From a virus (Duplodnaviria > Heunggongvirae > Uroviricota > Caudoviricetes): a stretch of DNA of 56,203 nt. The stretch is from positions 1 to 56,203 of the IMG/VR virus record IMGVR_UViG_2778260992_000008; one strand, given 5' to 3'. The notes below the pieces were generated by a model. The model ran no database searches, was not told where the DNA came from, and saw only the letters and a list, made by a program, of their open reading frames with translations. The position numbers were made by a program, and so were the translations under genes. Below, piece after piece: positions 5,273-41,242 of this stretch. Within the stretch, counting starts at the first letter, position 1. Each line of letters starts with the position of its first letter.

Positions 5273-6184
5273 TCATTGACAGCAAACAATCTCTTTATAT
5301 GTTTCTTCTACCATGTCGAAAACTTCAGGCCTGTAATAAAAAAATTCTTCGCTACCGCTAAATTTTACAGGAAAGTTAATTTTATAATTGCTAAAAGCCT
5401 TATGCATCGTTCTTTCTAATTCATATATATTTTCGGTTGGTCCATATAGCGTTTTCACGATATGCAAATCAGGAATTATAACGCCTGCTTTATGTGCGCT
5501 TCTTAATACCTGATTTCTTCGCTCGTTCTCCTTAACACTTACACCTATTTTCATTTGTGTAGGTACTTCCAGATCATCAACCATGATGTAAAGTTTTCCG
5601 TGATCGTGGGATAAAAAACCGCGTTTACCGCATTTCGGGCAACCGTGCCCGCATTTAAGGTGACTAGGCTTTGCTAACCACTTGTGATTACAAACTTTAC
5701 AGCGACACAATACCTTCTTCGCATCTCCGGTAATTTTCCCTAAAACTTCAACATCATGATTAGCCTTAACAATATTTGCAACTTGTTCTTTGTGTGTTAA
5801 TGTTGCTTTTAATCTCGCGCATTTCGGGCAACCGTGCCCGCATTTAAGGGCATTAGGTATAGACGACCATTCATGTCTACAAACCTTGCATCGACATAAC
5901 ACTTTCGTTTTGTCTCCTGTTATTTCTCCTGTAACTTCAACATCAGGATTAACCTTAGCAATGGCTACAACCTGTTCTTCGTGTGTTAACTTCGCATTTC
6001 CAGCGCATTTTGGACAACCCTGACCTCGCTTGAGGTTGCAAGGTGTAGGCGACCATTCATGTCTACAAACCTTGCATCTACATGTGACTTTTGTTTTATT
6101 GCCAGTAATTTCCCCGATCACTTCAACATCAGGATTGACGTCAGCAATAACTGCAACCTGTTCTTCGTGTGTTAACTTTCTCAT
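5273..6184 (-). CDS. triple zinc-ribbon repeat protein with C-terminal T5orf172/GIY-YIG-like domain
   Basis: Three ~47-aa repeats (LTHEEQV..NPDVEV.GEITG.KTKV.CRCKVCRHEWS...GCPKC); C-terminal KLYIMVDD...ENIYELERTMH...SGSEEFF; AT-rich; start 6184 chosen (ORF extends to 6226). Confidence 0.55.
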   Translation of the reverse strand: MRKLTHEEQVAVIADVNPDVEVIGEITGNKTKVTCRCKVCRHEWSPTPCNLKRGQGCPKCAGNAKLTHEEQVVAIAKVNPDVEVTGEITGDKTKVLCRCKVCRHEWSSIPNALKCGHGCPKCARLKATLTHKEQVANIVKANHDVEVLGKITGDAKKVLCRCKVCNHKWLAKPSHLKCGHGCPKCGKRGFLSHDHGKLYIMVDDLEVPTQMKIGVSVKENERRNQVLRSAHKAGVIIPDLHIVKTLYGPTENIYELERTMHKAFSNYKINFPVKFSGSEEFFYYRPEVFDMVEETYKEIVCCQ

Positions 6185-6324
6185 CGATCCAACTCCACAA
6201 AACGCACCAGACGCTATACAACGCAAAATTCCACCGCGTAACCCACTTGTAAGGGTGCAGTGTCTTTTTCGCGCCAGAGACGCTATCAGGTGGCTAATTT
6301 TCGATTTTTAAGGTGACAGGGTAG

Positions 6325-7975: not shown

Positions 7976-8623
7976 ATGAAAACAAAATGGTATGACTTAG
8001 CAAAACAACTCATGCGGGCGCAAGGTATGAGCCAGGATTCATTGGCGGACCTGATGGGGATCACGAAAGGCGGCTTATCGCACTGGCTGAACGGTCGCCG
8101 TGAGCCAAATCTTAATGATATTGCGCGGATCATGCGGGCGCTTGGTCGTCGGCAGTTTACGGTCACACATGATGGGATGGTTATTGATGATTCACTTTCT
8201 AATACACTGCCGGGAGCGCCACCGCTCGACGTAGGGCGTTATCCGGTGATTGACTGGAAAGACGCAGGAAACTACATGGAAGAAGCAAAACGCGCATCAT
8301 TACCGCACGTTAACACTAGCGTGATTTGTTCGGATGATAGTTATTGGCTGGTTGCAAAAGGTGAATCGATGAACGCGCCGCAAGGATTGAGCATCCCGGC
8401 GGGAACGATGATACTTGTTGATCCACACGCGCCAGCTATTGACGGCAAACTGGTTATAGCCCAATTGGAGGAAGGGCAAACGCCGACGTTTAAACAGTTG
8501 ATTATTGATGGAGGTCAAAGGCTTTTACGCTCGCTTAATCCGTTGTATCCACCAATCCCGCTAAATCCTGAATCAAAAATTATTGGCGTGGTGGTGGACG
8601 CGAAGATCGTAAACCTGCCATAA
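7976..8623 (+). CDS. cI-like repressor, HTH plus S24 LexA-type peptidase domain
   Basis: N-terminal HTH (SQDSLADLMGITKGGLSHWLNGRR); C-terminal GESM Ser and FKQL Lys dyad; divergent from replication genes. Confidence 0.85.
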   Translation: MKTKWYDLAKQLMRAQGMSQDSLADLMGITKGGLSHWLNGRREPNLNDIARIMRALGRRQFTVTHDGMVIDDSLSNTLPGAPPLDVGRYPVIDWKDAGNYMEEAKRASLPHVNTSVICSDDSYWLVAKGESMNAPQGLSIPAGTMILVDPHAPAIDGKLVIAQLEEGQTPTFKQLIIDGGQRLLRSLNPLYPPIPLNPESKIIGVVVDAKIVNLP

Positions 8624-8732: not shown

Positions 8733-8775
8733 GTATACAAAATGGATTGACTCGACATATCACAGGGCGTATATT
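8733..8775 (+). promoter_or_regulatory. sigma70-like early promoter with upstream ACAAAATGG element
   Basis: TTGACT (8747-8752), 17-nt spacer, TATATT (8770-8775); GTATACAAAATGGA immediately upstream. Confidence 0.55.
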
Positions 8776-9098
8776 GCGAATCAAAGGAAGGAAGCAGGAA
8801 ACAAAAAGCACCTTCCAGGCACTTTAAAAATCAGGCTTAACACCTTGTCAACCGTGGAGTAACTCCCCGATGTGGGACCGAAAGCGGCACTGATAACAAG
8901 GCGCATGGGGTGTTTAAAGCGTTACATCCCCCACGAAACCGCACGCAAGGCGACGAGTCAGATCACTTGGATTGAGTGGTGTCACACCGGAAACGGCGAT
9001 GATTGCGGGATTAGTTGAACGATGTTAAGCCATTCTCTTTAACAATCTGGTCGCTACTGAAATGTAGCAAACATGATTTTAACTAAGGAGAAAAGATT

Positions 9099-9389
9099 AT
9101 GAATGCGAAGATCATTTACGGTAACTGTGAGAGCAAATTAAATGCACGGAAGCGCCGCCGGATGAAGCGGGCAGCCGAACAAGACGAAGGCCCGCACATA
9201 CAGAAGATTGATAAAGTGGAAAAAGCTATTCGCTTTGCAAATGAGGAAAGATGCAAATCAAATAGCGTTAAAGAACGTCGCAAGGGCGCGACAAAATGGT
9301 ATCAGGAAAATGAAAGCGGCAACTACTTCCACGCAACGCAGCCGCGCCAGCTTGGGGAGATCCCGTTAGATAAAGTTCGATACCATTAA
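9099..9389 (+). CDS. hypothetical basic protein (96 aa)
   Basis: Strong RBS AAGGAGAAAAGATT-ATG; first ORF after a ~320-nt leader. Confidence 0.5.
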   Translation: MNAKIIYGNCESKLNARKRRRMKRAAEQDEGPHIQKIDKVEKAIRFANEERCKSNSVKERRKGATKWYQENESGNYFHATQPRQLGEIPLDKVRYH

Positions 9390-16715: not shown

Positions 16716-16840
16716 TAATGGCGCTTTTTACTTTGTTCGGGTGTATCCATTTTGTATACTGCAATCAAACGAAATGCTCTTTAAAAATCCGGCCCCGCTG
16801 AAATGCGGAAACACATCACCTAACAGAATGAGATCAAATT

Positions 16841-17646: not shown

Positions 17647-17661
17647 TTGGGAGTGTATTGC

Positions 17662-18138
17662 ATGATGAATTGGCACGAATGGTTTTGTTACGATGGTATT
17701 AACCTGATATGGAAAAAGTCACGCGGTAGAATGAAAGCAGGGAGTATTGCTGGGTGTCCAAATGATACTGGTCGCATACGCGTTAGGCTTTTTGGTAGAT
17801 GGTATAAAGCGCACCGTATTATATGGGAAATGCACAACGGCCCTATCCCGGAAGGATACGAGATAGACCATTTAGATCATGACCCTAGCAATAACAGGCT
17901 TAATAATTTTAGATTGGTATTAGGTAAGGAGAACGCGAAGAATAGACCAAAAAATAAAAATAATACCAGCGGGTATACTGGTATCTCATGGGACAAAGGA
18001 AGGGGTAAATGGTCGGTAACGATAATGGTTAATTATAAAACCATTCATCTAGGTAGATTTGATAATTTAGAGGACGCAATAAAGGCAAGACAAGAAGCTG
18101 AAATTAAATACGGTTTTCATCCAAATCACGGTAAGTAA
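17662..18138 (+). CDS. HNH endonuclease with AP2 DNA-binding domain
   Basis: HRIIWEMHNGPIPEGYEIDHLDHDPSNNRLNN then GYTGISWDKGRGKWSV...HLGRFDNLEDAIKARQEAE; AT-rich insertion between ninG and rusA. Confidence 0.75.
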   Translation: MMNWHEWFCYDGINLIWKKSRGRMKAGSIAGCPNDTGRIRVRLFGRWYKAHRIIWEMHNGPIPEGYEIDHLDHDPSNNRLNNFRLVLGKENAKNRPKNKNNTSGYTGISWDKGRGKWSVTIMVNYKTIHLGRFDNLEDAIKARQEAEIKYGFHPNHGK

Positions 18139-18571: not shown

Positions 18572-18737
18572 AGATCTGCAAATTGATATTCAGCGTGATG
18601 AGCATGATTTAGAAACTGTCAGACAAATCCAGGCTTTTCACATGCGCGAATTGCTCGCATTAAAAGAGCTTGAGAGAAAGTTAGTCCAGGCTATTTCTGA
18701 TCGTAAACAACTGGCGGCGCGTTACGGGGGTAAATAA
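18555..18737 (+). CDS. hypothetical coiled-coil protein (60 aa)
   Basis: ATG 18555 with RBS GGGGTGA; inside track ORF 18522-18737. Confidence 0.4.
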   Translation: MKNEIKDLQIDIQRDEHDLETVRQIQAFHMRELLALKELERKLVQAISDRKQLAARYGGK

Positions 18738-19459
18738 TGAATTTAGAATCCATTCTAAAATTCCACTTCCCCAAATCGCCGCGATTATCAGACGAAAGCC
18801 GGGGCACGTCACCGGATGCGCTTAATACAACGGATGCGCTAACCGCTGCTGGTATGGCGCAATCGCGCGTAGAGCTTGGATATAGCGCTTTTTTAGGAAA
18901 GATGGAACTATCGCAAGCCGAAAAACACAGGGCCGTAGTTTTGCTTACAGAGCGTTTAAGAGCTATGGCAAAAGATTACGAATACGTGATGGAATTAAAT
19001 GAAGAACAACGCAATGATCTTATTATTCTTGTTGCCGTTTTCGCGTTTCGGGATTATTGCCAAAGCGCCGCGACGGAAAAAACTTGTATGGAGTGCGGCG
19101 GATATAAATTTACGTTTGACGACTACGGAGAAAAACACCTTTGCAAAAAATGCAAGGGGCATGGGAAAGTTCGCAATCATTGTAAACAATGCAAGGGGCG
19201 TGGCGAAGTACCGGATAAAGCAGCCAGCGAAGCGGCGGAAATGCCAGTTTTCAAAACGTGCCAGCACTGCGGCGGGCGCGGGTACTCGCGTTTCCCGGTA
19301 GATCTTGTCCGCCAGGCGGTTAATCAGCTTGTTTTCCCGGTAAGCCGATCAACCTGGTGGAAAAAATACCGGGTTTTCTATGAAGACGCCATAGCGGAGC
19401 TATTCAAAGAAGAGGCCCGCGCGGAAAGTGAAATCAAACGAGTGACACGGGGTGATTAA
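18737..19459 (+). CDS. DnaJ-type zinc-finger protein (CxxCxGxG x4), possible late regulator
   Basis: CMECGGYK, CKKCKGHG, CKQCKGRG, CQHCGGRG; downstream of nin/rusA where lambdoid phages often place Q. Confidence 0.4.
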   Translation: MNLESILKFHFPKSPRLSDESRGTSPDALNTTDALTAAGMAQSRVELGYSAFLGKMELSQAEKHRAVVLLTERLRAMAKDYEYVMELNEEQRNDLIILVAVFAFRDYCQSAATEKTCMECGGYKFTFDDYGEKHLCKKCKGHGKVRNHCKQCKGRGEVPDKAASEAAEMPVFKTCQHCGGRGYSRFPVDLVRQAVNQLVFPVSRSTWWKKYRVFYEDAIAELFKEEARAESEIKRVTRGD

Positions 19460-19659
19460 TGGATAAGCTGGAAATAAACGATCAGTTTGTCGTTCTCTTG
19501 TTTGAAGATAAAACAGGCGGCGCATGGTGTAAGAAAGTCACTGGTGCGGAAGCGCGTTTAATATTGGGTATGGCAAGCGCGTTAAATGAAGGCGAATTGC
19601 CTGCCATCCCTATTAAGCCTGTCAAAATTTACAAGCGGGGTGACGATGATGAAGCCTAA
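19459..19659 (+). CDS. hypothetical protein
   Basis: 66-aa ORF, ATGA-type junction with upstream gene. Confidence 0.35.
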   Translation: MDKLEINDQFVVLLFEDKTGGAWCKKVTGAEARLILGMASALNEGELPAIPIKPVKIYKRGDDDEA

Positions 19660-19918
19660 ATTAAAAGAACATCTATTTGCAAAGCTGGTTAATGACCTGA
19701 CATTATCCGCGCGGTTGTGCCGTGATACACAACAATTAAGGGCGTGGATAGCAAGGGATTTAAAAAAATATATTGAGCCTGGCGGGCCAGGTGGCGAAAT
19801 CACGATGGACGAAGCCATCAAGCGCCGGACGGCTGAATGGTCAGTGAGTAACACCGGATTAACCGGATACATTGAAGGATATAACGACTGTTTACAGGAT
19901 CATAATGATGACAAATAA
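19646..19918 (+). CDS. hypothetical protein
   Basis: ATG 19646 with RBS GGGGTGA; inside track ORF 19586-19918. Confidence 0.4.
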   Translation: MMKPKLKEHLFAKLVNDLTLSARLCRDTQQLRAWIARDLKKYIEPGGPGGEITMDEAIKRRTAEWSVSNTGLTGYIEGYNDCLQDHNDDK

Positions 19919-20207
19919 ACACTTACATTTAAATTTAAAAGGGGAATACTTTCACGCTATCCGGGCGGGAAAGAAAGTGGAGGAATACAGGCTTTATAAT
20001 GACTACTGGCGGAAACGCCTGGAAGGGCGGGAATACACAAGATTAATCATCAAATGGGGATACCCGGCTAACGACGAGAAGGAACGAATACTTATTCTTC
20101 CTTATATGGGATACACAATCAAGACAATTCAGCATCCTTTATTTGGCGACGATCCTGTTAAAGTTTTTGCTATCAAATGCGATATTTATTGGCAATATAG
20201 GTTTTAG
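19905..20207 (+). CDS. hypothetical protein
   Basis: ATG 19905 with RBS AGGA; inside track ORF 19872-20207. Confidence 0.35.
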   Translation: MMTNKHLHLNLKGEYFHAIRAGKKVEEYRLYNDYWRKRLEGREYTRLIIKWGYPANDEKERILILPYMGYTIKTIQHPLFGDDPVKVFAIKCDIYWQYRF

Positions 20208-20210
20208 AAT

Positions 20211-20423
20211 ATGAAAAGTAACCGCAAGCGCCTTGTAAGGGCATACGACAAAGCATTAAAGGCTTTTGATGATCTGCGACACAATAAACGCCAGCGCCGT
20301 AAATGGGCGCGAATGCTTGTTAGTGAGTGGCATGATGAGGATTTTTTCCTTGAGGCCAGACACATGACGCAGGATGACGCCGACTTATTAGCTGATGATA
20401 ACGTTTACTATATGATGTGGTGA
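20211..20423 (+). CDS. hypothetical protein
   Basis: 70-aa ORF in tandem array. Confidence 0.35.
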   Translation: MKSNRKRLVRAYDKALKAFDDLRHNKRQRRKWARMLVSEWHDEDFFLEARHMTQDDADLLADDNVYYMMW

Positions 20424-20427
20424 TAAT

Positions 20428-20793
20428 ATGCAAATAATCATTGATTATCTTTGCCATGCTGCAAATACGCTTTTCGGTTTCTATCAACAGCCGTTTCTCA
20501 GAGAATGGGATAACATGTTGAACGATATCCTCGACAAAGGATTAATAATGGAAGTCGGGGAACTAACAATCAAATTTAATTACGAAGGCGAAGAATATGA
20601 TATATGGGTAGGTAACAGATGGTATGCATACGCTCATATTTATTCAATTGGCGGTAAATACATTAAACGAAGTCAAGAATTCAGACCACGCTTCCGCACA
20701 ATGCGCCGCCTGCATGATCTGCATATGAAGTTATTCGAAGATCAGGAAGCACGGGAATTATTCAAAATTTACGGGGATAAATCATGGAGCTAA
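20428..20793 (+). CDS. hypothetical protein
   Basis: 121-aa ORF in tandem array. Confidence 0.4.
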   Translation: MQIIIDYLCHAANTLFGFYQQPFLREWDNMLNDILDKGLIMEVGELTIKFNYEGEEYDIWVGNRWYAYAHIYSIGGKYIKRSQEFRPRFRTMRRLHDLHMKLFEDQEARELFKIYGDKSWS

Positions 20794-21014
20794 AAATCTG
20801 GCAGGCTATCGACGTAGTTGATAACGAATTATCTATGTTCGCCACTGACGGAAAGCGCGTGGTGATCGCTACATGGACGCGTAACCATGATGATATCGCT
20901 TTTCGTCGCAAGGCTGCGGAGTGGCTTTTCTCTGATGGCGGCTACACGATGAACATCGCACAGCTTGCCAGAATGAAGGATGAAAAGCTGGTAGACAGCT
21001 ACACAACTGCATAG
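20784..21014 (+). CDS. hypothetical protein
   Basis: 76-aa ORF overlapping upstream gene end. Confidence 0.35.
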   Translation: MELKIWQAIDVVDNELSMFATDGKRVVIATWTRNHDDIAFRRKAAEWLFSDGGYTMNIAQLARMKDEKLVDSYTTA

Positions 21015-21024
21015 CGGGGGAAAT

Positions 21025-21258
21025 ATGCGTATCTATGAGCACAAGCGGGATAAAACCCGCTTTTTTGTTCGTGCTGGCGTGGCGTACCAGTATCACGACT
21101 GCGGATATATTGAGGCGCTTGCTTACGATCTGGACTTCGAACAAGAAAAAGAATGGTTCGATTTCAAAATTTACCGGAAGCGGAAACCAACGCGCGACGA
21201 GCGCCACGCTATCCGCGATTTTCTAATCAGCATTGACCGCTGGGAGGCAGAGGAATGA
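21025..21258 (+). CDS. hypothetical protein
   Basis: 77-aa ORF in tandem array. Confidence 0.35.
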   Translation: MRIYEHKRDKTRFFVRAGVAYQYHDCGYIEALAYDLDFEQEKEWFDFKIYRKRKPTRDERHAIRDFLISIDRWEAEE

Positions 21259-21548
21259 AAGCAAAGAAAGCAGCAGATCAGAAAGCGTTAGTTATCGCAA
21301 CAACGGATGTATCGTTATTCACGAAGGGAGAAGAAATAGATCTTAAATTGCTTTTTGGCATGTTTGAGCCACACGAAAGGCCGTGGTTTGTTCATGAAGA
21401 TAAACAAGGCAATATGCGCGTTGTAGTGCCGGACAGAAACAGCGACATATTTTTTGCTATTCCAGACCCGTTACATGACGAGGAAATGCTGGCGGTATTG
21501 TTGATCGCTGATGCTGTTACTTACAAGGGAAAGAAATATGAAAGTTAA
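21255..21548 (+). CDS. hypothetical protein
   Basis: 97-aa ORF, 4-nt overlap with upstream gene. Confidence 0.35.
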   Translation: MKAKKAADQKALVIATTDVSLFTKGEEIDLKLLFGMFEPHERPWFVHEDKQGNMRVVVPDRNSDIFFAIPDPLHDEEMLAVLLIADAVTYKGKKYES

Positions 21549-21765
21549 ATTCTTGCACGATCACGGCTACCCGTCATTAAAACGCGTAGTAGGGGAAGTG
21601 GTAGACGTTGTTCACTCTGATGATGTGACCTGCGTCATTTTGGGTAAAGACCTTATTGCTCACGGTGCTGATCAGAATTATATCAATCCGGCGTGGTCGT
21701 ACACGTTCAGTCTTGGGGACTTTGTAGGCGATAAGGGGCGCGGGCTGCAAGTAGTCGAGGGTTAA
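21538..21765 (+). CDS. hypothetical protein
   Basis: ATG 21538 with RBS AGGGA; begins MKVKF like two other array members. Confidence 0.35.
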   Translation: MKVKFLHDHGYPSLKRVVGEVVDVVHSDDVTCVILGKDLIAHGADQNYINPAWSYTFSLGDFVGDKGRGLQVVEG

Positions 21766-21769
21766 TATC

Positions 21770-21985
21770 ATGGATGTTTACGAAGATTTATACCTTCAAA
21801 CAAATACCCGCACTTTTTATTTTTTGAAAAACGGCGTCGTATATCGCAGCGATGATGGGGTAATAATGAAGGAGTGGTTATTTAAACGCAAAGACCTGAT
21901 TGATGACCTGGTTTTTGCCGGGATATTCCGTAAACGTCCGGCTAACCTGGAAGAAGAAATGTTGATCGATGAGGTATTAAAATGA
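21770..21985 (+). CDS. hypothetical protein
   Basis: 71-aa ORF in tandem array. Confidence 0.35.
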   Translation: MDVYEDLYLQTNTRTFYFLKNGVVYRSDDGVIMKEWLFKRKDLIDDLVFAGIFRKRPANLEEEMLIDEVLK

Positions 21986-22233
21986 AAGTGAAAGTGAATT
22001 ATTTCAGGGCAAAAGACAAGGCAACAGGGAAGCGTGTAGCCGTCCTGGTTAATGAGGCCAATTACATGTTTATCCTTCAGCCGTGGTGCATAGCTGATTA
22101 TAACGATGATTATCGACGTCATGCTGCGCGGCGGGCGGTTGGCATGAAAGGCTGGCAACCGCGCGACATGCTTAATTATTGCGATTGGAACCTGATAGCA
22201 AAATATACGGTCGATTATAAAGGGGTTTTCTGA
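21982..22233 (+). CDS. hypothetical protein
   Basis: 83-aa ORF, 4-nt overlap; begins MKVKV. Confidence 0.35.
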   Translation: MKVKVNYFRAKDKATGKRVAVLVNEANYMFILQPWCIADYNDDYRRHAARRAVGMKGWQPRDMLNYCDWNLIAKYTVDYKGVF

Positions 22234-22517
22234 TGGAAAGCTATTTTGATCGGATGTTTTGCCGCACAACTTGTAACGAATACAAATTCACTACGGGCCA
22301 GGCTTACAAAATTCACAGGCTGCGCAATGCGACCACTGATCCGATGGTGTTTATCATGGACGACAACGAAGGCGCGTTTTACCAGGTATTCTACTGCGGT
22401 GATCTTGATTATGCACTGGTGAAAAATATCACCGGACAATGGCTTGCGCAGTTTTCCAGATACCCGGCTGATGTTGACACGAAAAATTATTTAAAGGTGG
22501 CTGATAATGCAAGTTAA
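22233..22517 (+). CDS. hypothetical protein
   Basis: 94-aa ORF, 1-nt overlap with upstream gene. Confidence 0.35.
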   Translation: MESYFDRMFCRTTCNEYKFTTGQAYKIHRLRNATTDPMVFIMDDNEGAFYQVFYCGDLDYALVKNITGQWLAQFSRYPADVDTKNYLKVADNAS

Positions 22518-22719
22518 GTGTTCATATTCAAGCAATGACAGTGTTTTCACTCTTGGGCGTGTTTATGACGTTCATATCGTTTATGGCAATGAAGCACACA
22601 GAGTGAGTGATTGCCTTGCCTTGATTGATAATCATGATGAAATTTGGATATTCAGGCCAACTTATCGGGGTGGCGAAATATCCGGTATTGATTTTTCCGC
22701 CAGCTTCGAGCGTTATTAA
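22507..22719 (+). CDS. hypothetical protein
   Basis: 70-aa ORF; begins MQVKC. Confidence 0.35.
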   Translation: MQVKCSYSSNDSVFTLGRVYDVHIVYGNEAHRVSDCLALIDNHDEIWIFRPTYRGGEISGIDFSASFERY

Positions 22720-22728
22720 GGGGGCGAC

Positions 22729-22944
22729 ATGATTTTAACGTGTCACGGATCTGATCTTGATTGTTTCGAAGACGGTTGCCAGTACGAAGCGGAAAAGCCA
22801 GGTGGATTACCAAAAAACCCGTTTTTAGTCGTTACGGACACTTACGGGCACTTATGGTATGCAGCGCCCAGCAAGGCGCGCGGCTGGTGGTTGATTCAGA
22901 ATGAAGATCGCGCGGTTGTGGTGGCCTTTAGGCAGGATGAATAA
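22729..22944 (+). CDS. hypothetical protein
   Basis: RBS AAGGGGG; 71-aa ORF. Confidence 0.4.
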   Translation: MILTCHGSDLDCFEDGCQYEAEKPGGLPKNPFLVVTDTYGHLWYAAPSKARGWWLIQNEDRAVVVAFRQDE

Positions 22945-22968
22945 AACGTGATCTACCCCGCAAAGTTT

Positions 22969-23008
22969 ACAAAATGGCATTGTTCAGGCAGTGCCATTTT
23001 GTTATAAA
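22969..23008 (+). promoter_or_regulatory. inverted repeat ACAAAATGGCA/TGCCATTTTGT overlapping a sigma70-like promoter
   Basis: 11-nt arms at 22969-22979 and 22992-23002; TTGTTC (22980-22985), 17-nt spacer, TATAAA (23003-23008). Confidence 0.5.
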
Positions 23009-23043
23009 GAAGCTGAAGAGAGAATGATGCGGAGGGTAGAAAA

Positions 23044-23316
23044 ATGAAACGCTGGATTAACGAAGAAACAGAGTCCCGCTTCAATGCAATTTGGGATCTG
23101 ATTGAAAAAGAGGACGGCGTTTCTAGTCCCTACCTGAACAATCTTGAGTTCCACTATGTAGAAGCGATGAACGCAGAGCATGACCACGAAGGCGGTGCTG
23201 ATGAATTCGCTAAAAAATACGGCTTCGATGATGCAAACCATATGATTAACAACGTGGTGATGCAGGCAGAGGAAGACTACGAATGCAAATCACTTGAATT
23301 CGCACGCATGGCATAA
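23044..23316 (+). CDS. hypothetical acidic protein
   Basis: RBS GGAGGG; 90-aa ORF. Confidence 0.4.
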   Translation: MKRWINEETESRFNAIWDLIEKEDGVSSPYLNNLEFHYVEAMNAEHDHEGGADEFAKKYGFDDANHMINNVVMQAEEDYECKSLEFARMA

Positions 23317-23326
23317 GGGGGAAAAC

Positions 23327-23467
23327 ATGAACGCTAACGATAAATATCCGGCCTGGGTCTTTGAACTATACGCCCGCTATTTTGAAGAACTGGCACCAGG
23401 GGAAGAAGCATTGAGCATTGACGAATACGCGGAGTGTTTAGGATTTAAAGGGGGCAAAGAAGAATAA
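23327..23467 (+). CDS. small hypothetical protein (46 aa)
   Basis: RBS AAGGGGGAAAAC-ATG; not in track (<60 aa). Confidence 0.35.
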   Translation: MNANDKYPAWVFELYARYFEELAPGEEALSIDEYAECLGFKGGKEE

Positions 23468-23479
23468 ACACGGGGCCGG

Positions 23480-23761
23480 ATGGCCCCCATAAGGAGTGAA
23501 GCAGTGGTTGTTATCAGACTATGGCGCGGTAATAGCAAGTTAGACGGCGAATACAGCCGCGTTGTTGAAGTCGTCAATCTTAAACGGTTTTACGAACTGG
23601 CATACAGCGAAAAACGGGAGAGTGTTTATTTGGACGAATCAATCCCAACGTGGCGCAAGGTAGCAGGTTTGCAGTCGCTGGTTAAACATGGGTTTTGGAC
23701 TGACCATAACACCCTGGAAGATGCAGAACTGGTAAAAACATTCTATGTGGAAGGAGAATAA
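23480..23761 (+). CDS. hypothetical protein
   Basis: 93-aa ORF in tandem array. Confidence 0.35.
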   Translation: MAPIRSEAVVVIRLWRGNSKLDGEYSRVVEVVNLKRFYELAYSEKRESVYLDESIPTWRKVAGLQSLVKHGFWTDHNTLEDAELVKTFYVEGE

Positions 23762-23764
23762 ACA

Positions 23765-24085
23765 ATGGCTAAATTCATCATCATTAAAGTTATGCGCGGC
23801 ACTTTCCCGAACGACGAAAAAGCGTATGGCCCGTTCGCAGGCAAGCCGGGCGCTATCTTCCATGTTGAAACTGAGGAAGGGAAAGCGACATACATTCCGG
23901 TAAGCGAGCCGCCATTCGAAGTGGCACATCTGGAAGAACCGAACAGGATTAAAGCGTTTGTTTGCCTGTCACTGATGATGGGTAACGTGCTCGATAATCC
24001 GGTTGATCTTGAAAACGGGGAACAAGTAGCAGAGTTCCGCATGACTCCAAACGAAGATGGAAACGCAGAAATTGAACGTTTATAA
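23765..24085 (+). CDS. hypothetical protein
   Basis: 106-aa ORF; RBS GGAAGGAG upstream. Confidence 0.4.
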   Translation: MAKFIIIKVMRGTFPNDEKAYGPFAGKPGAIFHVETEEGKATYIPVSEPPFEVAHLEEPNRIKAFVCLSLMMGNVLDNPVDLENGEQVAEFRMTPNEDGNAEIERL

Positions 24086-24308
24086 AATCCGCTGCAAAGG
24101 CAGTTATGACGGATTCACCACGGGGAGCGAATACTTGGGCCATATTGGGTATGGCCCTTTCGGCAACCTGGGGATGAATACGATCGACGATGACGGCGAC
24201 GAGCGAACGTTGGATCTTGATTCTGATGACTTCGAATACATTCCGCCAGTTACCCACTACGCCGTTGATTGTTTCCTGGACGAACAAGAAGACGAGGACG
24301 ACGACTAA
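24057..24308 (+). CDS. hypothetical acidic protein
   Basis: 83-aa ORF with strongly acidic C-terminus. Confidence 0.35.
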   Translation: METQKLNVYKIRCKGSYDGFTTGSEYLGHIGYGPFGNLGMNTIDDDGDERTLDLDSDDFEYIPPVTHYAVDCFLDEQEDEDDD

Positions 24309-24439
24309 TGGACGAATGGTATCAAAATTTACTTATTCTATTCCTTGCTGAAAATTGGGCCTTATTCGAACGCTTTTGTGAACAGCACGGCGAAGACCCT
24401 GAGGATATTTATCACGATCTTGGGGGTGAGGATGATTGA
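24308..24439 (+). CDS. small hypothetical protein (43 aa)
   Basis: ATG overlaps upstream stop (TAATG). Confidence 0.25.
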   Translation: MDEWYQNLLILFLAENWALFERFCEQHGEDPEDIYHDLGGEDD

Positions 24440-24632
24440 GTGTCTTATAGCTGTGATTGTTCTCATTTATATCGCTGGCGCTGGCCTGATGGCTTGTTTT
24501 ATCAAATATAACGATCTCGACCCTAGAAGTTTTGAGATTATTTTCTGGCCTGTAGTGGTGTTTATCGCTTACGTCGAGGCCACGCACGCACAGATCAAAA
24601 GAGCTATTAAGGAGCGTAAAAATGGGAAATAG
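24432..24632 (+). CDS. small membrane protein
   Basis: ATG 24432 with RBS GGGGGTGAGG; two hydrophobic helices. Confidence 0.4.
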   Translation: MIECLIAVIVLIYIAGAGLMACFIKYNDLDPRSFEIIFWPVVVFIAYVEATHAQIKRAIKERKNGK

Positions 24633-24819
24633 CGACCATGAATATGATGGCGTTTATCAGTCATTGGCTACGCGAGCTTATTACCGCCTCGAAGGTGAAC
24701 ACGTTTTGATGCGACTTGGTAGTCTTGATCGGTGGCATGAGCCATTTTTACCTATGACAGCGAAAGAAGTTATCACGATGGTTAATCACAGATACTGGCG
24801 CAAGGTTGGTGATTTGTAA
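24622..24819 (+). CDS. hypothetical protein
   Basis: 65-aa ORF, last gene before terminator. Confidence 0.35.
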   Translation: MGNSDHEYDGVYQSLATRAYYRLEGEHVLMRLGSLDRWHEPFLPMTAKEVITMVNHRYWRKVGDL

Positions 24820-24882
24820 CCATAATCGCGCATAAAAAACAAATAGATTAAAATATTTCCTAACAATGCGAAATTGTATTCA

Positions 24883-24905
24883 CCCGGCATCGCGCCGGGT
24901 TTTTT
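24883..24905 (+). terminator. rho-independent terminator upstream of lysis cassette
   Basis: CCCGGC-ATCGC-GCCGGG hairpin followed by TTTTTT. Confidence 0.6.
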
Positions 24906-24925
24906 GCTTTGTTGGAGGTAAATCT

Positions 24926-25126
24926 ATGTTCGACAAAATACGGGAGGCGTGCGCGTATGTGACCGGGGCCGTAACTGCTTTTTTCGGCGCGATAACCATC
25001 AATGACGTTGCCGTCTTTGTGGGTATCTTATCAACCATAGGCACATTTGCCGTTAATTATTACTTCAAATCACAGGAGAACAAGCGAGCGCAAGAGGAAC
25101 ACGACGCGCGAATGGGGAATAAGTAA
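24926..25126 (+). CDS. holin (66 aa)
   Basis: RBS GGAGG; two hydrophobic helices and charged C-terminus; directly precedes endolysin. Confidence 0.5.
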
Positions 25127-25127
25127 C

Positions 25128-25619
25128 ATGATTAGCCAATCGCTGAAGAATAAAATTATTGCTGCGGCGGCTGGTGGGGCGATCGCTATTGCGGCGGTGA
25201 TGGTTAAACCATTAGAGGGCGTGGAGTACGATCCCTATCGTGATGTTATCGGTGTATGGACCGTTTGTTATGGTCACACCGGAAAAGACATCATGCTGGG
25301 TAAGACTTACACGCAATCAGAATGCGATGCTTTGTTAAACAAAGATCTCCACAAAACCGCAAAAGCGATTGACCCATATATTAAAGTCGAAATATCAGAT
25401 TTTACCCGCGCGGCGCTTTATTCATTCGCCTATAACGTAGGCGCTACCAACTTCAAAACATCAACCTTATTAAAACTACTCAACGATGGCAAGAAATCCG
25501 AAGCGTGCGCCCAGCTTAAACGCTGGATATATGCTGGTGGTCAAAAATGGCAAGGTTTAATCAACCGCCGTGATGTTGAATATGCCGTTTGTGAATGGGG
25601 GGAAACGTGGACAAGATAA
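25128..25619 (+). CDS. SAR endolysin, T4-type lysozyme family
   Basis: N-terminal signal-arrest-release helix [17 protein letters not shown] followed by [23 protein letters not shown] catalytic region. Confidence 0.75.
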
Positions 25620-33457: not shown

Positions 33458-34507
33458 ATGTACTTTACCAAAGAAAATTTAGCCGCTAATAGCCGCCTTC
33501 AGGCACATTGGGCTGAACTGTGGGCGCAACGTAACATTTACAACAACCAGCACAACGCCATGATTGCAGCCAATAAGGCAAACATGACCACTGAAATGCT
33601 GGCATGTAACGCCGTTGGCGGCTTCGAGAAGGAATTCTGGAAAGAAATTGATAACCAGATCATCGAACTGAACACCGAAGAGATCGGTATCGAGATCGTA
33701 AACGACTTGATGGCTGTACAAACCGTGCTACCTATCGGTAAAACTCTGAAAATGTATAGCGTCGCTGGCGATATCAACGATGAAGTGGTCATGTCTATGG
33801 ACGGTCAAGTTCCGCATGGCTTCGACCACACTGAATACGGTAGCGATGGCGACCCGATCCCGATGTTCGCAGCGGGTTACGGTGTTAACTGGCGTCACGC
33901 CGCTGGCCTGAATACCGTAGGTATCGACCTTGCACTGGACAGCCAGCGCCTGAAACTGAAAAAATTCAACAAAGCACGCGTAGATTTCTACCTGAACGGG
34001 AATGAACGCATGGTTGTTGACGGTCATAAAGCAATGGGTCTGAAAAACCACAAAAACACCCAACAACTAACCCTGACCATTGACCTGACTACCGCAGGCT
34101 TTGAAGAAATTATCGATTTCTTCACCGTTGGCGAGTTCGGCGTACTGGCACGCAATAACTTTGTTGCTAAGTATGATCGTCTGTGGGTATCCCCTGAAAT
34201 TATGGCTAACCTGGCCCGTCCGCACATCGTTAACGGCGCGATCGTTGGTAGTGTCCTGGATATCATCAAACCGTTTGCTCCGGTTGGTGAAATTACCCAA
34301 ACCTTCGCCCTGAAAGGCAACGAAATCCTGGGTTATCAACGTCGCAAAGATGTAGTCACCCCACTGATTGGTATGACTACTGGTGTTGTGCCGCTGCCGC
34401 GCATGATGCCGACCGACAACTACAACTTCCGCATTATGTCGGCTGAAGGTTTACAAATCACTTCCGACATGCTGGGCCGTTCCGGTGTCGTTTACGGTCA
34501 CGATTAA
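33458..34507 (+). CDS. major capsid protein
   Basis: 349 aa; RBS AGAAGGGGAAAAAC-ATG; followed by a strong terminator. Confidence 0.6.
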   Translation: MYFTKENLAANSRLQAHWAELWAQRNIYNNQHNAMIAANKANMTTEMLACNAVGGFEKEFWKEIDNQIIELNTEEIGIEIVNDLMAVQTVLPIGKTLKMYSVAGDINDEVVMSMDGQVPHGFDHTEYGSDGDPIPMFAAGYGVNWRHAAGLNTVGIDLALDSQRLKLKKFNKARVDFYLNGNERMVVDGHKAMGLKNHKNTQQLTLTIDLTTAGFEEIIDFFTVGEFGVLARNNFVAKYDRLWVSPEIMANLARPHIVNGAIVGSVLDIIKPFAPVGEITQTFALKGNEILGYQRRKDVVTPLIGMTTGVVPLPRMMPTDNYNFRIMSAEGLQITSDMLGRSGVVYGHD

Positions 34508-34527
34508 TCTAAATGTTTCCTGTAACT

Positions 34528-34555
34528 CCCCGGCGCGATGCCGGGGATTTTTTTT
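34528..34555 (+). terminator. rho-independent terminator after major capsid gene
   Basis: CCCCGGC-GCGAT-GCCGGGG hairpin followed by T8. Confidence 0.7.
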
Positions 34556-34573
34556 GTATGTGGAGCAAGCAAA

Positions 34574-36884: not shown

Positions 36885-36909
36885 GGGGCCATCCGGCCCC
36901 TTTTCTTTT
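36885..36909 (+). terminator. rho-independent terminator/attenuator after major tail gene
   Basis: GGGGCC-ATCC-GGCCCC hairpin followed by TTTTCTTTT. Confidence 0.6.
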
Positions 36910-36915: not shown

Positions 36916-37602
36916 ATGATTATGATTCATGTTCGTACCGGACAATTTGAAATTAAGGTTGATGGTCACGCATATATATTTAATCCATCCTTTGCAGCTA
37001 TGGCGCGAATCGGTGATGATTCCGAACTGGTGCGCTACTTTGCCATTGTTCATGGTGGAAGGTATCCGAAAATCTTCCCTATCGATCCAGACCTTCGCAA
37101 ACGGGTTTTAGCGCGGTGTTATGGTGAACTGGTGCAGACGGCTATTCACATTCTGAAATCATGCGCAGAAAGCGAAATAGGGCCGCTGGTGGGCGAGTGT
37201 AGATTTACTCCGGCGGGCAAATTACGGTTGCGCCCTGGCTTGCTGCCAACTCAGGACGTCATCACGCTGGCGCAACATTGCATGTACCACGGTTTAATCG
37301 GTGACATCCCCGGTAACAAACAACAAACTGATAAGCAGGAAGGGGAATATAAATCAACGTTCGATGTTCTTGATTACGTTTATTCCGCCGTTGCTCATCT
37401 TGGACTATCTGAATCAGAGGCGTGGGCCATGACCATGACCGGATATAGGGCCGCTGTACGCGCTAAAACGCCGCCAGAAGCGAAAAACGAGAAAAGACGA
37501 CCAGATGCCGCCATAGATAAAAAGGCTTATGACGATGGGATGCAGGCCGCAAGAAAGGCACTGGAAAGAATGAAAAAATTAAAACAGAAAAAAGCCCGGT
37601 AG
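36916..37602 (+). CDS. tail assembly chaperone (putative)
   Basis: Position between major tail and tape-measure genes; ATG 36916 (track ORF begins 36883 inside the hairpin). Confidence 0.4.
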   Translation: MIMIHVRTGQFEIKVDGHAYIFNPSFAAMARIGDDSELVRYFAIVHGGRYPKIFPIDPDLRKRVLARCYGELVQTAIHILKSCAESEIGPLVGECRFTPAGKLRLRPGLLPTQDVITLAQHCMYHGLIGDIPGNKQQTDKQEGEYKSTFDVLDYVYSAVAHLGLSESEAWAMTMTGYRAAVRAKTPPEAKNEKRRPDAAIDKKAYDDGMQAARKALERMKKLKQKKAR

Positions 37603-37614
37603 TTCCGGGCTTTT
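37593..37614. terminator. bidirectional hairpin terminator
   Basis: AGCCCGG-TAGTT-CCGGGCT with T-runs on both strands; sits between convergent genes. Confidence 0.55.
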
Positions 37615-37616: not shown

Positions 37617-38228
37617 TTAGTTCCAGTGGCAAGCATTTTTCACTTTGTTGATATGTTTTTCTAAGCCTTCGATGTTGAATGTTGCTTTTTCGATATAGCC
37701 CGCTTCCGGCAATGTTTCGATAATGAATTGTTTCTCGTTAAGCATTTTTTTAATCATCGGGATGGCTTTTTTGCCGTTCCATAATCCCAGGGCTTTATAG
37801 TTAGTTGCCCGTTGCCATTCTGCTTTCACCGCTTTATGTTCCCCGATCCGGTAGGTAACTTGGGTGGTATCGCCAGCATCCGCAATCATGTTATGCCAGG
37901 CTACAAACATTTTTGTTGTATTGGCTTTGCATTCGATAACTAATACCGGTTTATTTTTCTCTTTTGCTTTCAGTGCCGGGAAATCATCAAGCTGACCGTT
38001 AAATTTTACCGCTTTGACATGTAGCTGTACATTGGGTGTATCGTGCATATCGTCCTTACCTTCCCACACGGCCCACTGTTTCCCAATGTTATCCCGTTCC
38101 ATTTCTTGATGTTTTTCAGCTATTTCTTTTTCAAATTGTTTAATATTTTCAAGGCTTTTTGCTTGTTGTTCGCAACCAACCAGCCCAACCAGCGCCGCCA
38201 TTATTGCCACTTTCGCTAACCGTTTCAT
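37617..38228 (-). CDS. lipoprotein (accessory gene, opposite strand, inside tail module)
   Basis: Signal peptide plus lipobox MKRLAKVAIMAALVGLVGC; ATG 38228 with GGGG RBS; own promoter and terminator. Confidence 0.6.
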   Translation of the reverse strand: MKRLAKVAIMAALVGLVGCEQQAKSLENIKQFEKEIAEKHQEMERDNIGKQWAVWEGKDDMHDTPNVQLHVKAVKFNGQLDDFPALKAKEKNKPVLVIECKANTTKMFVAWHNMIADAGDTTQVTYRIGEHKAVKAEWQRATNYKALGLWNGKKAIPMIKKMLNEKQFIIETLPEAGYIEKATFNIEGLEKHINKVKNACHWN

Positions 38229-38276
38229 AAAACACCCCGTTTGCCTTGAATTACTAACCACTTCCTATAGCTTCTT

Positions 38277-41237: not shown

Positions 41238-41242
41238 AATAA

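What the first reader, a model, noticed from the sequence alone, without database searches (positions are those of the whole stretch)
18737..19459. DnaJ-type four-repeat zinc-finger protein as candidate regulator of the motif-bearing promoters
It has four CxxCxGxG repeats in the position where lambdoid phages encode late antiterminator Q. Because the late genes here appear to use separate promoters and terminators, this protein is a candidate late activator or antiterminator.
Basis: inference. Interest (0 to 1): 0.4.

Follow-up and report, generated by a model that had tools for sequence, protein, structure and literature searches.

The report
Lambda-type Q antiterminator, long zinc-ribbon form
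This gene encodes an ordinary member of the phage lambda Q family of late-gene antiterminators, in the common long form with a second zinc ribbon, and near-identical proteins are already annotated this way, so it is not a new kind of regulator.

Summary
The ORF at 18737-19459 (+, 240 aa) is real. It carries four CxxC knuckles, three of them perfect CxxCxGxG. It is not a DnaJ-like protein. It is a full-length homologue of lambda Q: Pfam PF03589 at 1.3e-29, PHROG 127 at 1.4e-78, PDB 7UBM at 2.7e-37, and a predicted fold whose only significant matches are lambda Q. The two extra knuckles are a 33-residue insertion at the base of lambda Q's zinc-ribbon arm. Phi80 Q and many other lambdoid Q proteins have the same insertion. 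The window is an mEp021-like (mEpimmI) coliphage. mEp021 gp37 is already annotated as "putative late gene regulator Q".

The most likely site of action is a single pR'-type module 5.4 kb downstream, just before the holin gene. It consists of a conserved spacer, a -10 TAAAAT, a lambda-like pause element AACAAT, and a strong terminator.

The repeated motif (CCATTTTGT) marks promoters in early, middle and late regions. One of them drives the N-dependent operon that contains Q itself. The motif is absent from other phages with long-form Q. So there is no evidence that Q regulates the motif-bearing promoters. This is a known kind and of low interest.

The parts
18737..19459 (+). Q gene: lambda-family late antiterminator, long form, 240 aa
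   Evidence: ORF confirmed. Pfam PF03589 at 1.3e-29. PHROG 127 at 1.4e-78, full length. Lambda Q 7ubm_Q at 2.7e-37. Foldseek top 8 hits are all lambda Q.
18737..18868 (+). Residues 1-44. In lambda Q this segment folds into the torus (nozzle) at the RNA-exit channel.
   Evidence: 25 of 44 residues are identical to lambda Q, the best-conserved segment. Its role in lambda comes from PMC9388147. pLDDT is low for residues 14-29, as expected for a segment that is disordered when free.
19079..19177 (+). Residues 115-147: insertion relative to lambda Q, carrying knuckles 1 and 2 (C117/C120, C136/C139). Inferred to form a second zinc ribbon.
   Evidence: The lambda alignment is split into 1-114 and 148-238. 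The insertion is 33-90 aa long in homologues, with the Cys invariant. Phi80 Q has the same insertion.
19178..19288 (+). Residues 148-184: lambda-type zinc-ribbon arm with knuckles 3 and 4 (C149/C152, C175/C178)
   Evidence: These residues align with lambda C118/C121/C144/C147, with the same 22-residue spacing. In lambda the arm contacts the QBE, sigma region 4 and the beta' zinc-binding domain.
19298..19447 (+). Residues 188-237: C-terminal helices of the body, including the helix-turn-helix
   Evidence: AF2 predicts helices at 188-198 and 204-237. They align to the lambda Q body, residues 153-207.
24837..24848 (+). Conserved promoter spacer AAACAAATAGAT; candidate Q-binding element (inferred)
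   Evidence: The block AAACAAAYAGAT is kept in nearly all of the 17 mEpimmI genomes aligned, although two unrelated sequences lie just upstream of it in phages with 98-99% identical Q. It is the only exact copy in the window.
24849..24854 (+). Candidate -10 hexamer TAAAAT of a pR'-type late promoter. An overlapping alternative is TAGATT at 24844-24849.
   Evidence: TAAAAT is invariant in 17 genomes. TAGATT is the annotated -10 of phi80 pR', but its first base varies among relatives. There is no good -35 in this window (sequence).
24862..24867 (+). Candidate sigma-dependent pause element AACAAT, in the context CCTAACAATGCG
   Evidence: Lambda has AACGAT-GGG at +1 to +6. [TC]AACGATGG follows Q in 57 of 65 long-Q lambdoid loci, and TAACAATGG in one. 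This is the only site of its kind on the + strand of the rightward operon. The distant relative L006 has TATAAT-TCCCTC-AATAAT-GGC at the same place.
24882..24905 (+). Intrinsic terminator (tR' equivalent; t5 of mEp021), 20 nt before the holin start
   Evidence: 7-bp stem with 6 GC pairs, followed by T6. Fold energy is -19 kcal/mol, z = -3.0. It is annotated TERM_5 in mEp021 and reported as experimentally demonstrated in PMC11893012.
24926..25619 (+). Holin (24926-25126) and endolysin (25128-25619), the first genes downstream of the module
   Evidence: Pfam Phage_holin_2_3 at 8e-16 and Phage_lysozyme at 6.5e-44.
34527..34547 (+). Strong internal late-region terminator after the 349-aa ORF 33458..34507. 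It is one of several that a Q-modified polymerase would have to read through. The others are at 36885-36900, 37590-37614, 41241-41264, 42940-42957 and 50012-50032.
   Evidence: Terminator scans. Folds for 34520-34560 and 41225-41275 have z = -3.9 and -5.0.
16747..16808 (+). Motif-bearing promoter (CCATTTTG-TATACT) followed by nutR2 (boxA GCTCTTTAA at 16776-16784, boxB hairpin at 16795-16808). It heads the operon that contains Q.
   Evidence: Sequence. The boxA search is. The position agrees with the nutR2 placement in PMC11893012.

Best explanation
The gene encodes the late-gene antiterminator Q of an mEp021-like (mEpimmI-group) temperate coliphage. It belongs to the lambda Q family (Pfam PF03589).

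Shown here:
- It is collinear with lambda Q over its whole length.
- It keeps lambda's four zinc ligands.
- Its predicted fold matches only lambda Q structures.
- Its best-conserved part is the N-terminal segment, which in lambda refolds into the nozzle on the RNA-exit channel of RNA polymerase.
- It differs from lambda Q by a 33-residue insertion with two more CxxC knuckles at the base of the zinc-ribbon arm. Phi80 Q and many other family members share this insertion.

Inferred:
- Knuckles 3 and 4 form the lambda-type zinc site, and knuckles 1 and 2 form a second, tandem zinc ribbon. This is not the nested DnaJ arrangement.
- The gene is transcribed from the N-dependent promoter/nutR2 unit at about 16.75 kb.
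- The protein binds the conserved spacer of one pR'-type promoter at 24837-24854. There it engages sigma70-RNA polymerase paused at AACAAT (24862-24867) and, with NusA, makes it read through the terminator at 24882-24905. The same modification carries polymerase through the further terminators inside the lysis, head and tail region.
- Without Q, this promoter would produce only an RNA of about 45 nt.
For: Family membership:
- Pfam Antiterm PF03589 scores 102.6 bits against a cutoff of 26.7.
- PHROG 127 'anti-termination protein Q-like' matches at 1.4e-78 over residues 1-238.
- Lambda Q matches at 2.7e-37, with 1-114 aligned to 1-114 and 148-238 aligned to 117-207.
- The AF2 model has pLDDT 82. 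Its Foldseek top 8 hits are all lambda Q, with target-normalised TM-score (TMt) 0.83 to 7ubm_Q and no DnaJ.
- Near-identical proteins are named antitermination protein Q by NCBI. mEp021 gp37 is annotated 'putative late gene regulator Q'.

Conservation:
- Identity to lambda Q is 57% in residues 1-44 and about 30% in the DNA-binding body.
- G39, L58 and T237 correspond to lambda G39, L58 and T206, which matter for antitermination.

Long form:
- Phi80 Q is 32% identical over its full length and has the same extra Cys pair.

Target module:
- A conserved non-coding block lies upstream of the holin gene in 17 genomes.
- Its geometry matches lambda and phi80 pR'.
- The YAAC[GA]ATGG element follows Q in 57 of 65 long-Q lambdoid loci.
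- The same architecture occurs in a relative whose Q is 51% identical.
- The terminator folds well.
- The site is unique in the window.
Against: - No experiment on this Q or its site was found. PMC11893012 only mentions a 'Q-lambda-like' protein.
- The proposed promoter has no recognisable -35 in this window. The -10 assignment is ambiguous (TAAAAT or TAGATT).
- The Q-binding element is inferred from conservation only.
- Unlike lambda and the 65 lambdoid loci examined, the module is not adjacent to Q. It lies 5.4 kb and about 22 small ORFs downstream.
- The N-like antiterminator of this phage group might itself carry early transcripts through the same terminator. Q's contribution therefore cannot be quantified from sequence.
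- The zinc-site pairing of knuckles 1 and 2 was not checked on coordinates.
Confidence: 0.8

Rival explanations
1. Q is the activator or antiterminator of the many promoters that carry the repeated motif CCATTTTGT / ACAAAATGG. It would load at each of them, so that every block of late genes has its own Q-dependent promoter.
For: - The motif is strongly enriched: 13 exact 9-mers against about 0.4 expected.
- In several sites it lies in the promoter spacer just before a -10-like hexamer, which is where lambda's QBE sits.
- Rightward copies precede blocks of tail genes at 38305, 42198, 43992/44054 and 51274. Each of these follows a terminator and a - strand moron.
- The pR' spacer AACAAATAGAT loosely resembles AACAAATACAT at 51266.
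Against: - The motif also marks the leftward early promoter upstream of nutL and the promoter upstream of nutR2. The latter drives the operon that contains Q, so it must fire before Q exists.
- The motif occurs in both orientations and inside coding sequence.
- None of the motif sites has the Q-family pause-element context YCTAAC[GA]ATG. That context is found only at 24859 on the rightward strand.
- The motif is at background frequency (0.06 per 10 kb) in 67 lambdoid loci with long-form Q, but enriched (0.84-2.3 per 10 kb) in the mEpimmI lineage, including a branch whose Q is only 51% identical.
- The resemblance at 51266 is at chance level: 19 hits against 13 expected.
Confidence: 0.06
2. The protein is a DnaJ-like zinc-finger chaperone or anti-TRAP-like zinc protein, unrelated to transcription.
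For: It has four CxxC(xGxG) knuckles. There are weak hits to DnaJ_CXXCXGXG (6.5e-6), to DnaJ_bact and to the anti-TRAP protein RtpA.
Against: - All these hits are far below the curated cutoffs: 26.7 against 32.7 bits, 23.6 against 377, and 19.1 against 65.
- No J domain or DnaJ C-terminal domain hit was reported.
- The fold search returns only lambda Q.
- Knuckles 3 and 4 are homologous to lambda Q's own zinc site, so the pairing is tandem rather than nested as in DnaJ.
Confidence: 0.01
3. The Q gene is conserved but dispensable. Late genes are expressed mainly by N-like (Gp17) antitermination of early transcripts that run from the nutR2 unit through Q and the small ORFs and across the terminator at 24882.
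For: - There is no terminator-like hairpin of comparable strength between nutR2 (16776) and 24882 on the + strand, apart from weak candidates.
- The whole stretch is one uninterrupted string of + strand ORFs.
- The group depends on Nus factors and has three nut sites. The terminator t5 was among those tested experimentally.
- The pR' candidate lacks a -35.
Against: - Q is intact, and its eight zinc ligands and N-terminal RNAP-engaging segment are conserved across the group and beyond.
- The non-coding promoter/pause block upstream of the terminator is nearly invariant in 17 genomes despite unrelated flanks. N-dependent read-through alone would not require that.
- The same module is found in a distant relative.
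Confidence: 0.08

Closest known systems
Bacteriophage lambda Q (PDB 4MO1, 7UBJ-7UBN; Pfam PF03589)
   Same: - It is collinear over the full length and 33.6% identical.
- It has the same N-terminal nozzle-forming segment, 57% identical over residues 1-44.
- It has the same four-helix body with helix-turn-helix, and the same zinc-ribbon arm with all four Cys ligands and the 22-residue arm tip.
- The gene sits in the same nin-region position.
- The candidate target has the same layout: -10, then 6-7 nt, then AAC[GA]AT, then a terminator before the lysis genes.
   Different: - Lambda Q (207 aa) lacks the 33-residue insertion with knuckles 1 and 2.
- Lambda's pR' starts about 40 bp after the Q stop codon and has a good -35 (TTGACT). 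Here the module lies 5.4 kb downstream and has no clear -35.
- The spacer (QBE) sequences are unrelated.
Phage phi80 Q (gp17, 269 aa), the experimentally studied long-form member (Guo & Roberts 2004, cited in PMC9388147)
   Same: - It is the long form, with an extra Cys pair inserted at the same point. It is 32% identical over the full length.
- Its annotated pR' has -10 TAGATT followed by CATCTC-TAACGCT-GGG and a terminator. The hexamer TAGATT and the TAAC element recur in the window's module.
   Different: - The phi80 insertion is about 67 residues, against 33 here. Its third knuckle is CxC.
- Phi80 pR' lies directly after Q and has a -35 (TTGCAT).
- The annotated phi80 QBE (TCGCGGA) is not conserved among mEpimmI phages with near-identical Q.
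mEp021 gp37 and the mEpimmI phage group (MH706966; PMC11893012)
   Same: - It belongs to the same phage group. Synteny is the same: methyltransferase, NinG, RusA, small ORF, Q, small ORFs, t5, holin.
- Q in the group's GenBank phage genomes is up to 95% identical (mEp013), and 85-99% identical in related viral contigs.
- gp37 is annotated 'putative late gene regulator Q'.
   Different: - The window has an extra HNH endonuclease gene between NinG and RusA.
- It has a longer block of small ORFs between Q and the holin gene, about 5.4 kb against about 2 kb in mEp021.
- No experiment on any Q of this group was found.
DnaJ cysteine-rich domain (Pfam PF00684)
   Same: It has CxxCxGxG knuckles that bind zinc.
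   Different: - The window protein has no J domain, no G/F region and no C-terminal substrate-binding domains.
- The hit is below Pfam's cutoff.
- The zinc ribbons are inferred to be tandem rather than nested.
- The fold search finds no DnaJ.

Membership tests
Q-lambda family of antiterminators (Pfam PF03589) | Sequence match to the family profile above the curated threshold | tested here: met
   PF03589 scores 102.6 bits against a cutoff of 26.7, E = 1.3e-29. PHROG 127 matches at 1.4e-78.
Q-lambda family of antiterminators (Pfam PF03589) | Full-length collinearity with lambda Q, including the N-terminal segment that forms the RNA-exit-channel nozzle | tested here: met
   Residues 1-114 align to lambda 1-114, and 148-238 align to 117-207. 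25 of 44 residues are identical in the nozzle segment.
Q-lambda family of antiterminators (Pfam PF03589) | Four-helix body with helix-turn-helix, plus a zinc-ribbon arm with four Cys ligands | tested here: met
   An AF2 model (pLDDT 82) matches 7ubm_Q with target-normalised TM-score (TMt) 0.83 and 7ubl_A with 0.80. C149, C152, C175 and C178 align with lambda C118, C121, C144 and C147. This rests on a predicted structure, not a solved one.
Q-lambda family of antiterminators (Pfam PF03589) | Gene at the end of the nin region, immediately upstream of the late promoter pR' | tested here: inconclusive
   The nin-region position is met: NinG, RusA, then Q. Adjacency to pR' is not met. The only pR'-like module is 5.4 kb downstream.
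Q-lambda family of antiterminators (Pfam PF03589) | Target site with a Q-binding element, a sigma-dependent pause element in the initial transcribed region, and a downstream terminator | tested here: inconclusive
   A pause-element-like AACAAT, a -10 and a strong terminator are present at 24849-24905. They are conserved in 17 genomes and resemble lambda, phi80 and 57 of 65 long-Q loci. The Q-binding element and promoter activity are inferred only.
Q-lambda family of antiterminators (Pfam PF03589) | NusA-assisted antitermination activity on E. coli RNA polymerase | not testable with these tools
   This needs in vitro transcription or phage genetics.
DnaJ / Hsp40 chaperones | J domain, cysteine-rich domain above threshold, and C-terminal substrate-binding domains | tested here: not met
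   Only PF00684 matched, at 26.7 bits, below the cutoff of 32.7. No other DnaJ domain hit was reported. NCBIfam DnaJ_bact scored 23.6 against a cutoff of 377. No DnaJ appeared in the fold search.
Q21 (PF06530) and Q82 (PF06323) antiterminator families | Profile match to either family | tested here: not met
   The Pfam scan at E <= 0.01 returned only PF03589 and PF00684. The family definitions are from PMC9388147.
P2 Ogr / P4 Delta zinc-finger late activators | Small (about 70-170 aa) Ogr_Delta zinc-finger protein acting at late promoters with TGT-N12-ACA dyads | tested here: not met
   No Ogr_Delta hit was reported in Pfam. The protein is full-length homologous to lambda Q instead.

The most novel reading that the evidence does not exclude
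The second zinc ribbon of long-form Q proteins gives an extra DNA or RNA-polymerase contact. In this phage group it lets Q load at more than one promoter. These would be the pR' module before the holin gene and the internal promoters that restart rightward transcription after each - strand moron in the tail region (38305, 44054, 51274). Those three are followed by the shared element GTWACAYAGATCACAAAA. Late transcription would then be a relay of Q-loading sites rather than one 25-kb antiterminated transcript.
Probability: 0.06. Interest if true: 0.5.

Novelty: already known. Interest (0 to 1): 0.12.

Why it matters
For annotation, the gene should be called antitermination protein Q (lambda family), not a DnaJ-like zinc-finger protein. 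mEp013's copy is still labelled 'hypothetical protein'.

The modest points of interest are these:
- All solved structures in the family are of lambda Q, which lacks the second zinc ribbon that phi80 Q and many relatives carry. What that ribbon contributes is untested.
- In the mEpimmI phages the Q gene and its presumed loading site are separated by 2-5 kb of small ORFs. This makes them a natural system for asking how far Q and pR' can be uncoupled.

Neither point changes the general picture of Q-dependent antitermination.

Tried and rejected
1. DnaJ or chaperone reading. Rejected: hits are below the cutoffs and the fold matches only lambda Q.

2. Q21, Q82 and Ogr/Delta families. No profile hits were reported.

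3. A pR' directly after the Q stop codon, as in lambda. There is none. The next ORF overlaps the stop, and no YCTAACRATG element lies near 19459.

4. Motif CCATTTTGT as the Q-binding element. Rejected as unsupported.

5. Element GTWACAYAGATCACAAAA (38322, 44074, 51296) as a sigma-dependent pause element. Its -10-like registers lack the A at position 2 or the T at position 6 in two of three copies, and its distance from the candidate -10 varies. It is left unexplained.

6. TCGCGCA at 24826-24832 as a phi80-like QBE (phi80 has TCGCGGA). Rejected because phages with 98-99% identical Q have unrelated sequence at that position.

7. CATAAT at 24821-24826 as the -10. Rejected because it is not conserved in mEp021-type relatives.

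8. An Rfam scan of the whole window gave no family.

9. The papers by Valencia-Toxqui et al. 2023, Guo & Roberts 2004 and Vorobiev et al. 2014 are not held in the library. The published nut-site and phi80 QBE sequences could therefore not be compared directly.

Full report
**Observation**

The ORF 18737..19459 (+ strand, 240 aa) exists exactly as described. It is translationally coupled on both sides: its ATG overlaps the preceding stop, and its TAA overlaps the next ATG. The protein has nine cysteines. Eight of them form four CxxC knuckles within 62 residues:
- C117-MEC-GGYK, which is imperfect because the last Gly is missing
- C136-KKC-KGHG
- C149-KQC-KGRG
- C175-QHC-GGRG

All eight are invariant in 21 homologues down to 35% identity. 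The upstream genes are a DNA methyltransferase, NinG, an HNH endonuclease, RusA and a small ORF. This is the nin-region slot of lambdoid phages. Two overlapping ORFs on other frames match nothing.

**What the protein is**

It is a homologue of lambda Q, not merely a protein in Q's place.
- Pfam Antiterm (PF03589, 'Antitermination protein Q') scores 102.6 bits against a cutoff of 26.7. The DnaJ_CXXCXGXG hit, at 26.7 bits, is below its cutoff of 32.7.
- PHROG 127 (Q-like) matches residues 1-238 at 1.4e-78.
- Against the PDB, the best hit is lambda Q (7ubm_Q, 2.7e-37). Residues 1-114 align to lambda 1-114, and 148-238 align to lambda 117-207.
- An AlphaFold model built on 21 homologues (pLDDT 82) finds only lambda Q structures with significance: eight hits, with target-normalised TM-score 0.83 to 7ubm_Q and 0.80 to the Q-QBE complex. 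No DnaJ appears.
- NCBIfam DnaJ scores 23.6 bits against a cutoff of 377.
- PF03589 is the Q-lambda family as defined by Yin et al. (PMC9388147). The other two Q families, PF06530 and PF06323, give no hit.

**Provenance and prior annotation**

The window is a member of the mEpimmI group of Nus-dependent temperate coliphages, whose archetype is mEp021 (PMC11893012).
- By tblastn, Q is 95.4% identical in mEp013 and 83.5% in MagusPhagus. It is 85-99% identical in 13 viral contigs of 50-71 kb.
- mEp021 gp37 is annotated 'putative late gene regulator Q'. The MagusPhagus copy is annotated 'anti-termination protein Q-like'. NCBI names the near-identical E. coli proteins 'antitermination protein (Q)', and one cluster has 981 members.
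- The 2025 paper mentions a 'Q-lambda-like' protein but reports no experiment on it.

**The four repeats**

Relative to lambda Q, the protein has a 33-residue insertion (115-147) between the conserved SAA(T/S) motif and lambda's first CxxC.
- The insertion carries knuckles 1 and 2. Knuckles 3 and 4 align with lambda's zinc ligands C118/C121/C144/C147 and keep the same 22-residue arm tip.
- In homologues the insertion ranges from 33 to about 90 residues, always with the extra Cys pair.
- Phi80 Q (269 aa) has it too. Phi80 Q is an experimentally studied member of the family (Guo & Roberts 2004, cited). It is 32% identical over its full length.
- Among phage records, both the short lambda/P22 form (621-nt matches) and long forms are common.
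- Because knuckles 3 and 4 are homologous to a solved zinc site, the arrangement is inferred to be two tandem zinc ribbons, not the nested DnaJ topology. This was not checked on coordinates.
- In lambda, residues flanking the insertion point (110-112, 117, 122-126) touch the beta' zinc-binding domain, and the arm touches the QBE and sigma region 4. The extra ribbon is therefore placed to modify one of those contacts. This is inference.

**Conservation pattern**

Identity to lambda Q is 57% in residues 1-44 (the segment that forms the nozzle), 56% in 45-60, and about 30% in the body and the helix-turn-helix. This pattern is what would be expected for a protein that engages the same host polymerase but binds a different DNA site.

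**Where it probably acts**

There is no intergenic space after Q. About 22 small + strand ORFs follow, and none of the seven scanned has a Pfam match. The first non-coding stretch with a strong terminator is 24820-24925, just before the holin (24926) and endolysin (25128) genes.

In 17 mEpimmI genomes the block AAACAAAYAGATTAAAATATTWCCTAACAATGCGAAAYTGTA plus the terminator is almost invariant. Meanwhile two unrelated sequences lie immediately upstream of it, even in phages whose Q is 98-99% identical.

The layout compares as follows:

| Phage | -10 | Gap | Pause-element position | Next bases | Source |
|---|---|---|---|---|---|
| This window | TAAAAT | ATTTCCT | AACAAT | GCG | |
| Lambda | TAAATT | TGACTC | AACGAT | GGG | |
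| Phi80 | TAGATT | CATCTC | TAACGCT | GGG | |

- In 57 of 65 lambdoid loci encoding long-form Q, [TC]AACGATGG (at most two mismatches) lies 16-77 nt after the Q stop. One locus has TAACAATGG.
- A distant relative of the group, whose Q is 51% identical, has TATAAT-TCCCTC-AATAAT-GGC followed by a terminator at the same place before its holin gene.
- In the window, the context YCTAACRATG occurs on the rightward transcription unit only here. The spacer sequence is unique.
- The terminator folds at -19 kcal/mol, z = -3.0. It corresponds to mEp021 t5, which is reported as experimentally demonstrated.

Weak points are that there is no recognisable -35 in this window, that two overlapping -10 candidates exist, and that the Q-binding element is inferred only from conservation.

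**The 'motif-bearing promoters'**

The window does contain a strongly enriched 9-mer, CCATTTTGT / ACAAAATGG. There are 13 exact copies against about 0.4 expected by base count. Usually it sits just before a -10-like hexamer (CCATTTTG-TAWACT). Two perfect inverted pairs lie at 22969-23002 and 38280-38313.

The motif is not late-specific.
- A variant lies in the spacer of the leftward early promoter TTGACC-16-TAAACT (7916-7889), upstream of a boxA (GCTCTTTAA, 7809-7801).
- A copy abuts the -35 of the rightward early promoter (8747-8775), upstream of boxA/boxB at 9034-9068.
- A copy with TATACT (16747-16760) lies upstream of boxA (16776-16784) and boxB (16795-16808).

The three boxA/boxB positions agree with the published placement of nutL, nutR1 and nutR2. 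The third promoter heads the operon that contains Q, so it cannot depend on Q.

The motif is enriched in the mEpimmI lineage (1.6-2.3 per 10 kb) and in the branch with a 51%-identical Q (0.84 per 10 kb). It is at background (0.06 per 10 kb) in 67 other loci with long-form Q. A collection-wide scan for the inverted pair returned 27 stretches, most of them on 47-57-kb contigs and several of those contigs also carrying the mEpimmI-type Q. The motif therefore goes with the phage lineage, not with the Q type. What recognises it remains open.

**Late-region terminators**

Strong + strand terminators lie at these positions:
- 34527, after the 349-aa ORF 33458..34507
- 36885
- 37590 (bidirectional)
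- 41241, after the tape-measure gene
- 42940 (bidirectional)
- 50012

Three - strand genes interrupt the tail region: 37617-38261, 43453-43860, and the Cor-like exclusion gene 50957-51340. Internal terminators in a late operon are what Q-modified polymerase is known to read through. They fit a Q mechanism rather than arguing for separate regulation. It cannot be decided from sequence whether the rightward motif promoters after each moron add to late expression.

**Verdict**

The antiterminator interpretation is supported, and the protein is a true Q-lambda-family member. The link to the repeated motif is not supported, and 'DnaJ-type' is only a motif-level resemblance. This is a known family, already annotated as Q in close relatives, and of low interest. 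The residual open points are the role of the second zinc ribbon, the 5.4-kb separation between Q and its presumed loading site, and the identity of the factor behind the CCATTTTGT motif.

Noticed in passing
window 3979, 7894, 7929, 7982, 8737, 9291, 12831, 12855, 16683, 16747, 22969-23002, 38280-38313, 42198, 43992, 44054, 51274, 51308: The 9-mer CCATTTTGT / ACAAAATGG is enriched about 30-fold. It usually sits just before a -10-like hexamer (CCATTTTG-TAWACT) and is oriented with local transcription. Two perfect inverted pairs look like back-to-back divergent sites. The motif is specific to the mEpimmI lineage and is absent from other phages with long-form Q. The factor that recognises it is unknown; host sigma70 alone, the CI-like repressor or another phage protein are all possible.
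   Followed up: partly
window 38322-38339, 44074-44091, 51296-51313: A second shared element, GTWACAYAGATCACAAAA (it contains a GATC), lies just downstream of motif-bearing promoters and just upstream of the ribosome-binding sites of the tape-measure gene, a minor tail protein gene and the large tail-fibre gene. Three copies were found against 0.15 expected. Its function is unexplained.
   Followed up: partly
window 7809-7780 (- strand), 9034-9068, 16776-16808: Three nut-like sites were recognised from sequence. They carry boxA GCTCTTTAA, TCTCTTTAACAA and GCTCTTTAA. The two rightward sites (9034-9068 and 16776-16808) are each followed by a short hairpin with a UGAAAU loop; the hairpin of the leftward site was not pinned down. 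Each lies downstream of a promoter. Their positions agree with nutL, nutR1 and nutR2 reported for mEp021. The N-like gene is 9099-9389 and the CI-like repressor gene is 7976-8623.
   Followed up: partly
window 19459-24819: About 22 tightly packed small + strand ORFs lie between Q and the late promoter module. The seven scanned against Pfam gave no match, and four others match only PHROG families of unknown function. The block is 2 kb in mEp021, 3.3 kb in mEp013 and 5.4 kb here. It is an accessory-gene region of variable length, inserted where lambda has Q directly next to pR'.
   Followed up: partly
window 17647-18138: A free-standing HNH-AP2 endonuclease gene sits between NinG and RusA. Those two genes are adjacent in mEp013, mEp021 and MagusPhagus, so this is probably a mobile homing-endonuclease insertion.
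   Followed up: no
window 24855-24906: If the pR'-type promoter is constitutive as in lambda, a terminated RNA of about 45 nt would be made in lysogens. This would be analogous to lambda 6S RNA or the StxS sRNA of Stx phages (PMC7547250). Rfam gives no match for it.
   Followed up: no
window 37617-38261, 43453-43860, 50957-51340 (all - strand): Three - strand genes interrupt the tail-gene cluster. One is a Cor-like superinfection-exclusion gene (50957-51340) and two belong to PHROG families of unknown function. The first two lie next to bidirectional terminators (37590-37614 and 42940-42957). Each of the three has a motif-bearing promoter region beside it.
   Followed up: partly
window 5628-6178: Three tandem copies of a unit of about 186 bp, 76-80% identical to each other, lie inside the - strand 317-aa endonuclease-like ORF (5273-6226).
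   Followed up: no
window 51356-56203: A very large ORF (more than 1615 aa) with Ala/Thr-rich 21-bp periodic repeats at 51740-52270 runs to the end of the window. It is presumably the tail fibre and is cut by the window edge.
   Followed up: no
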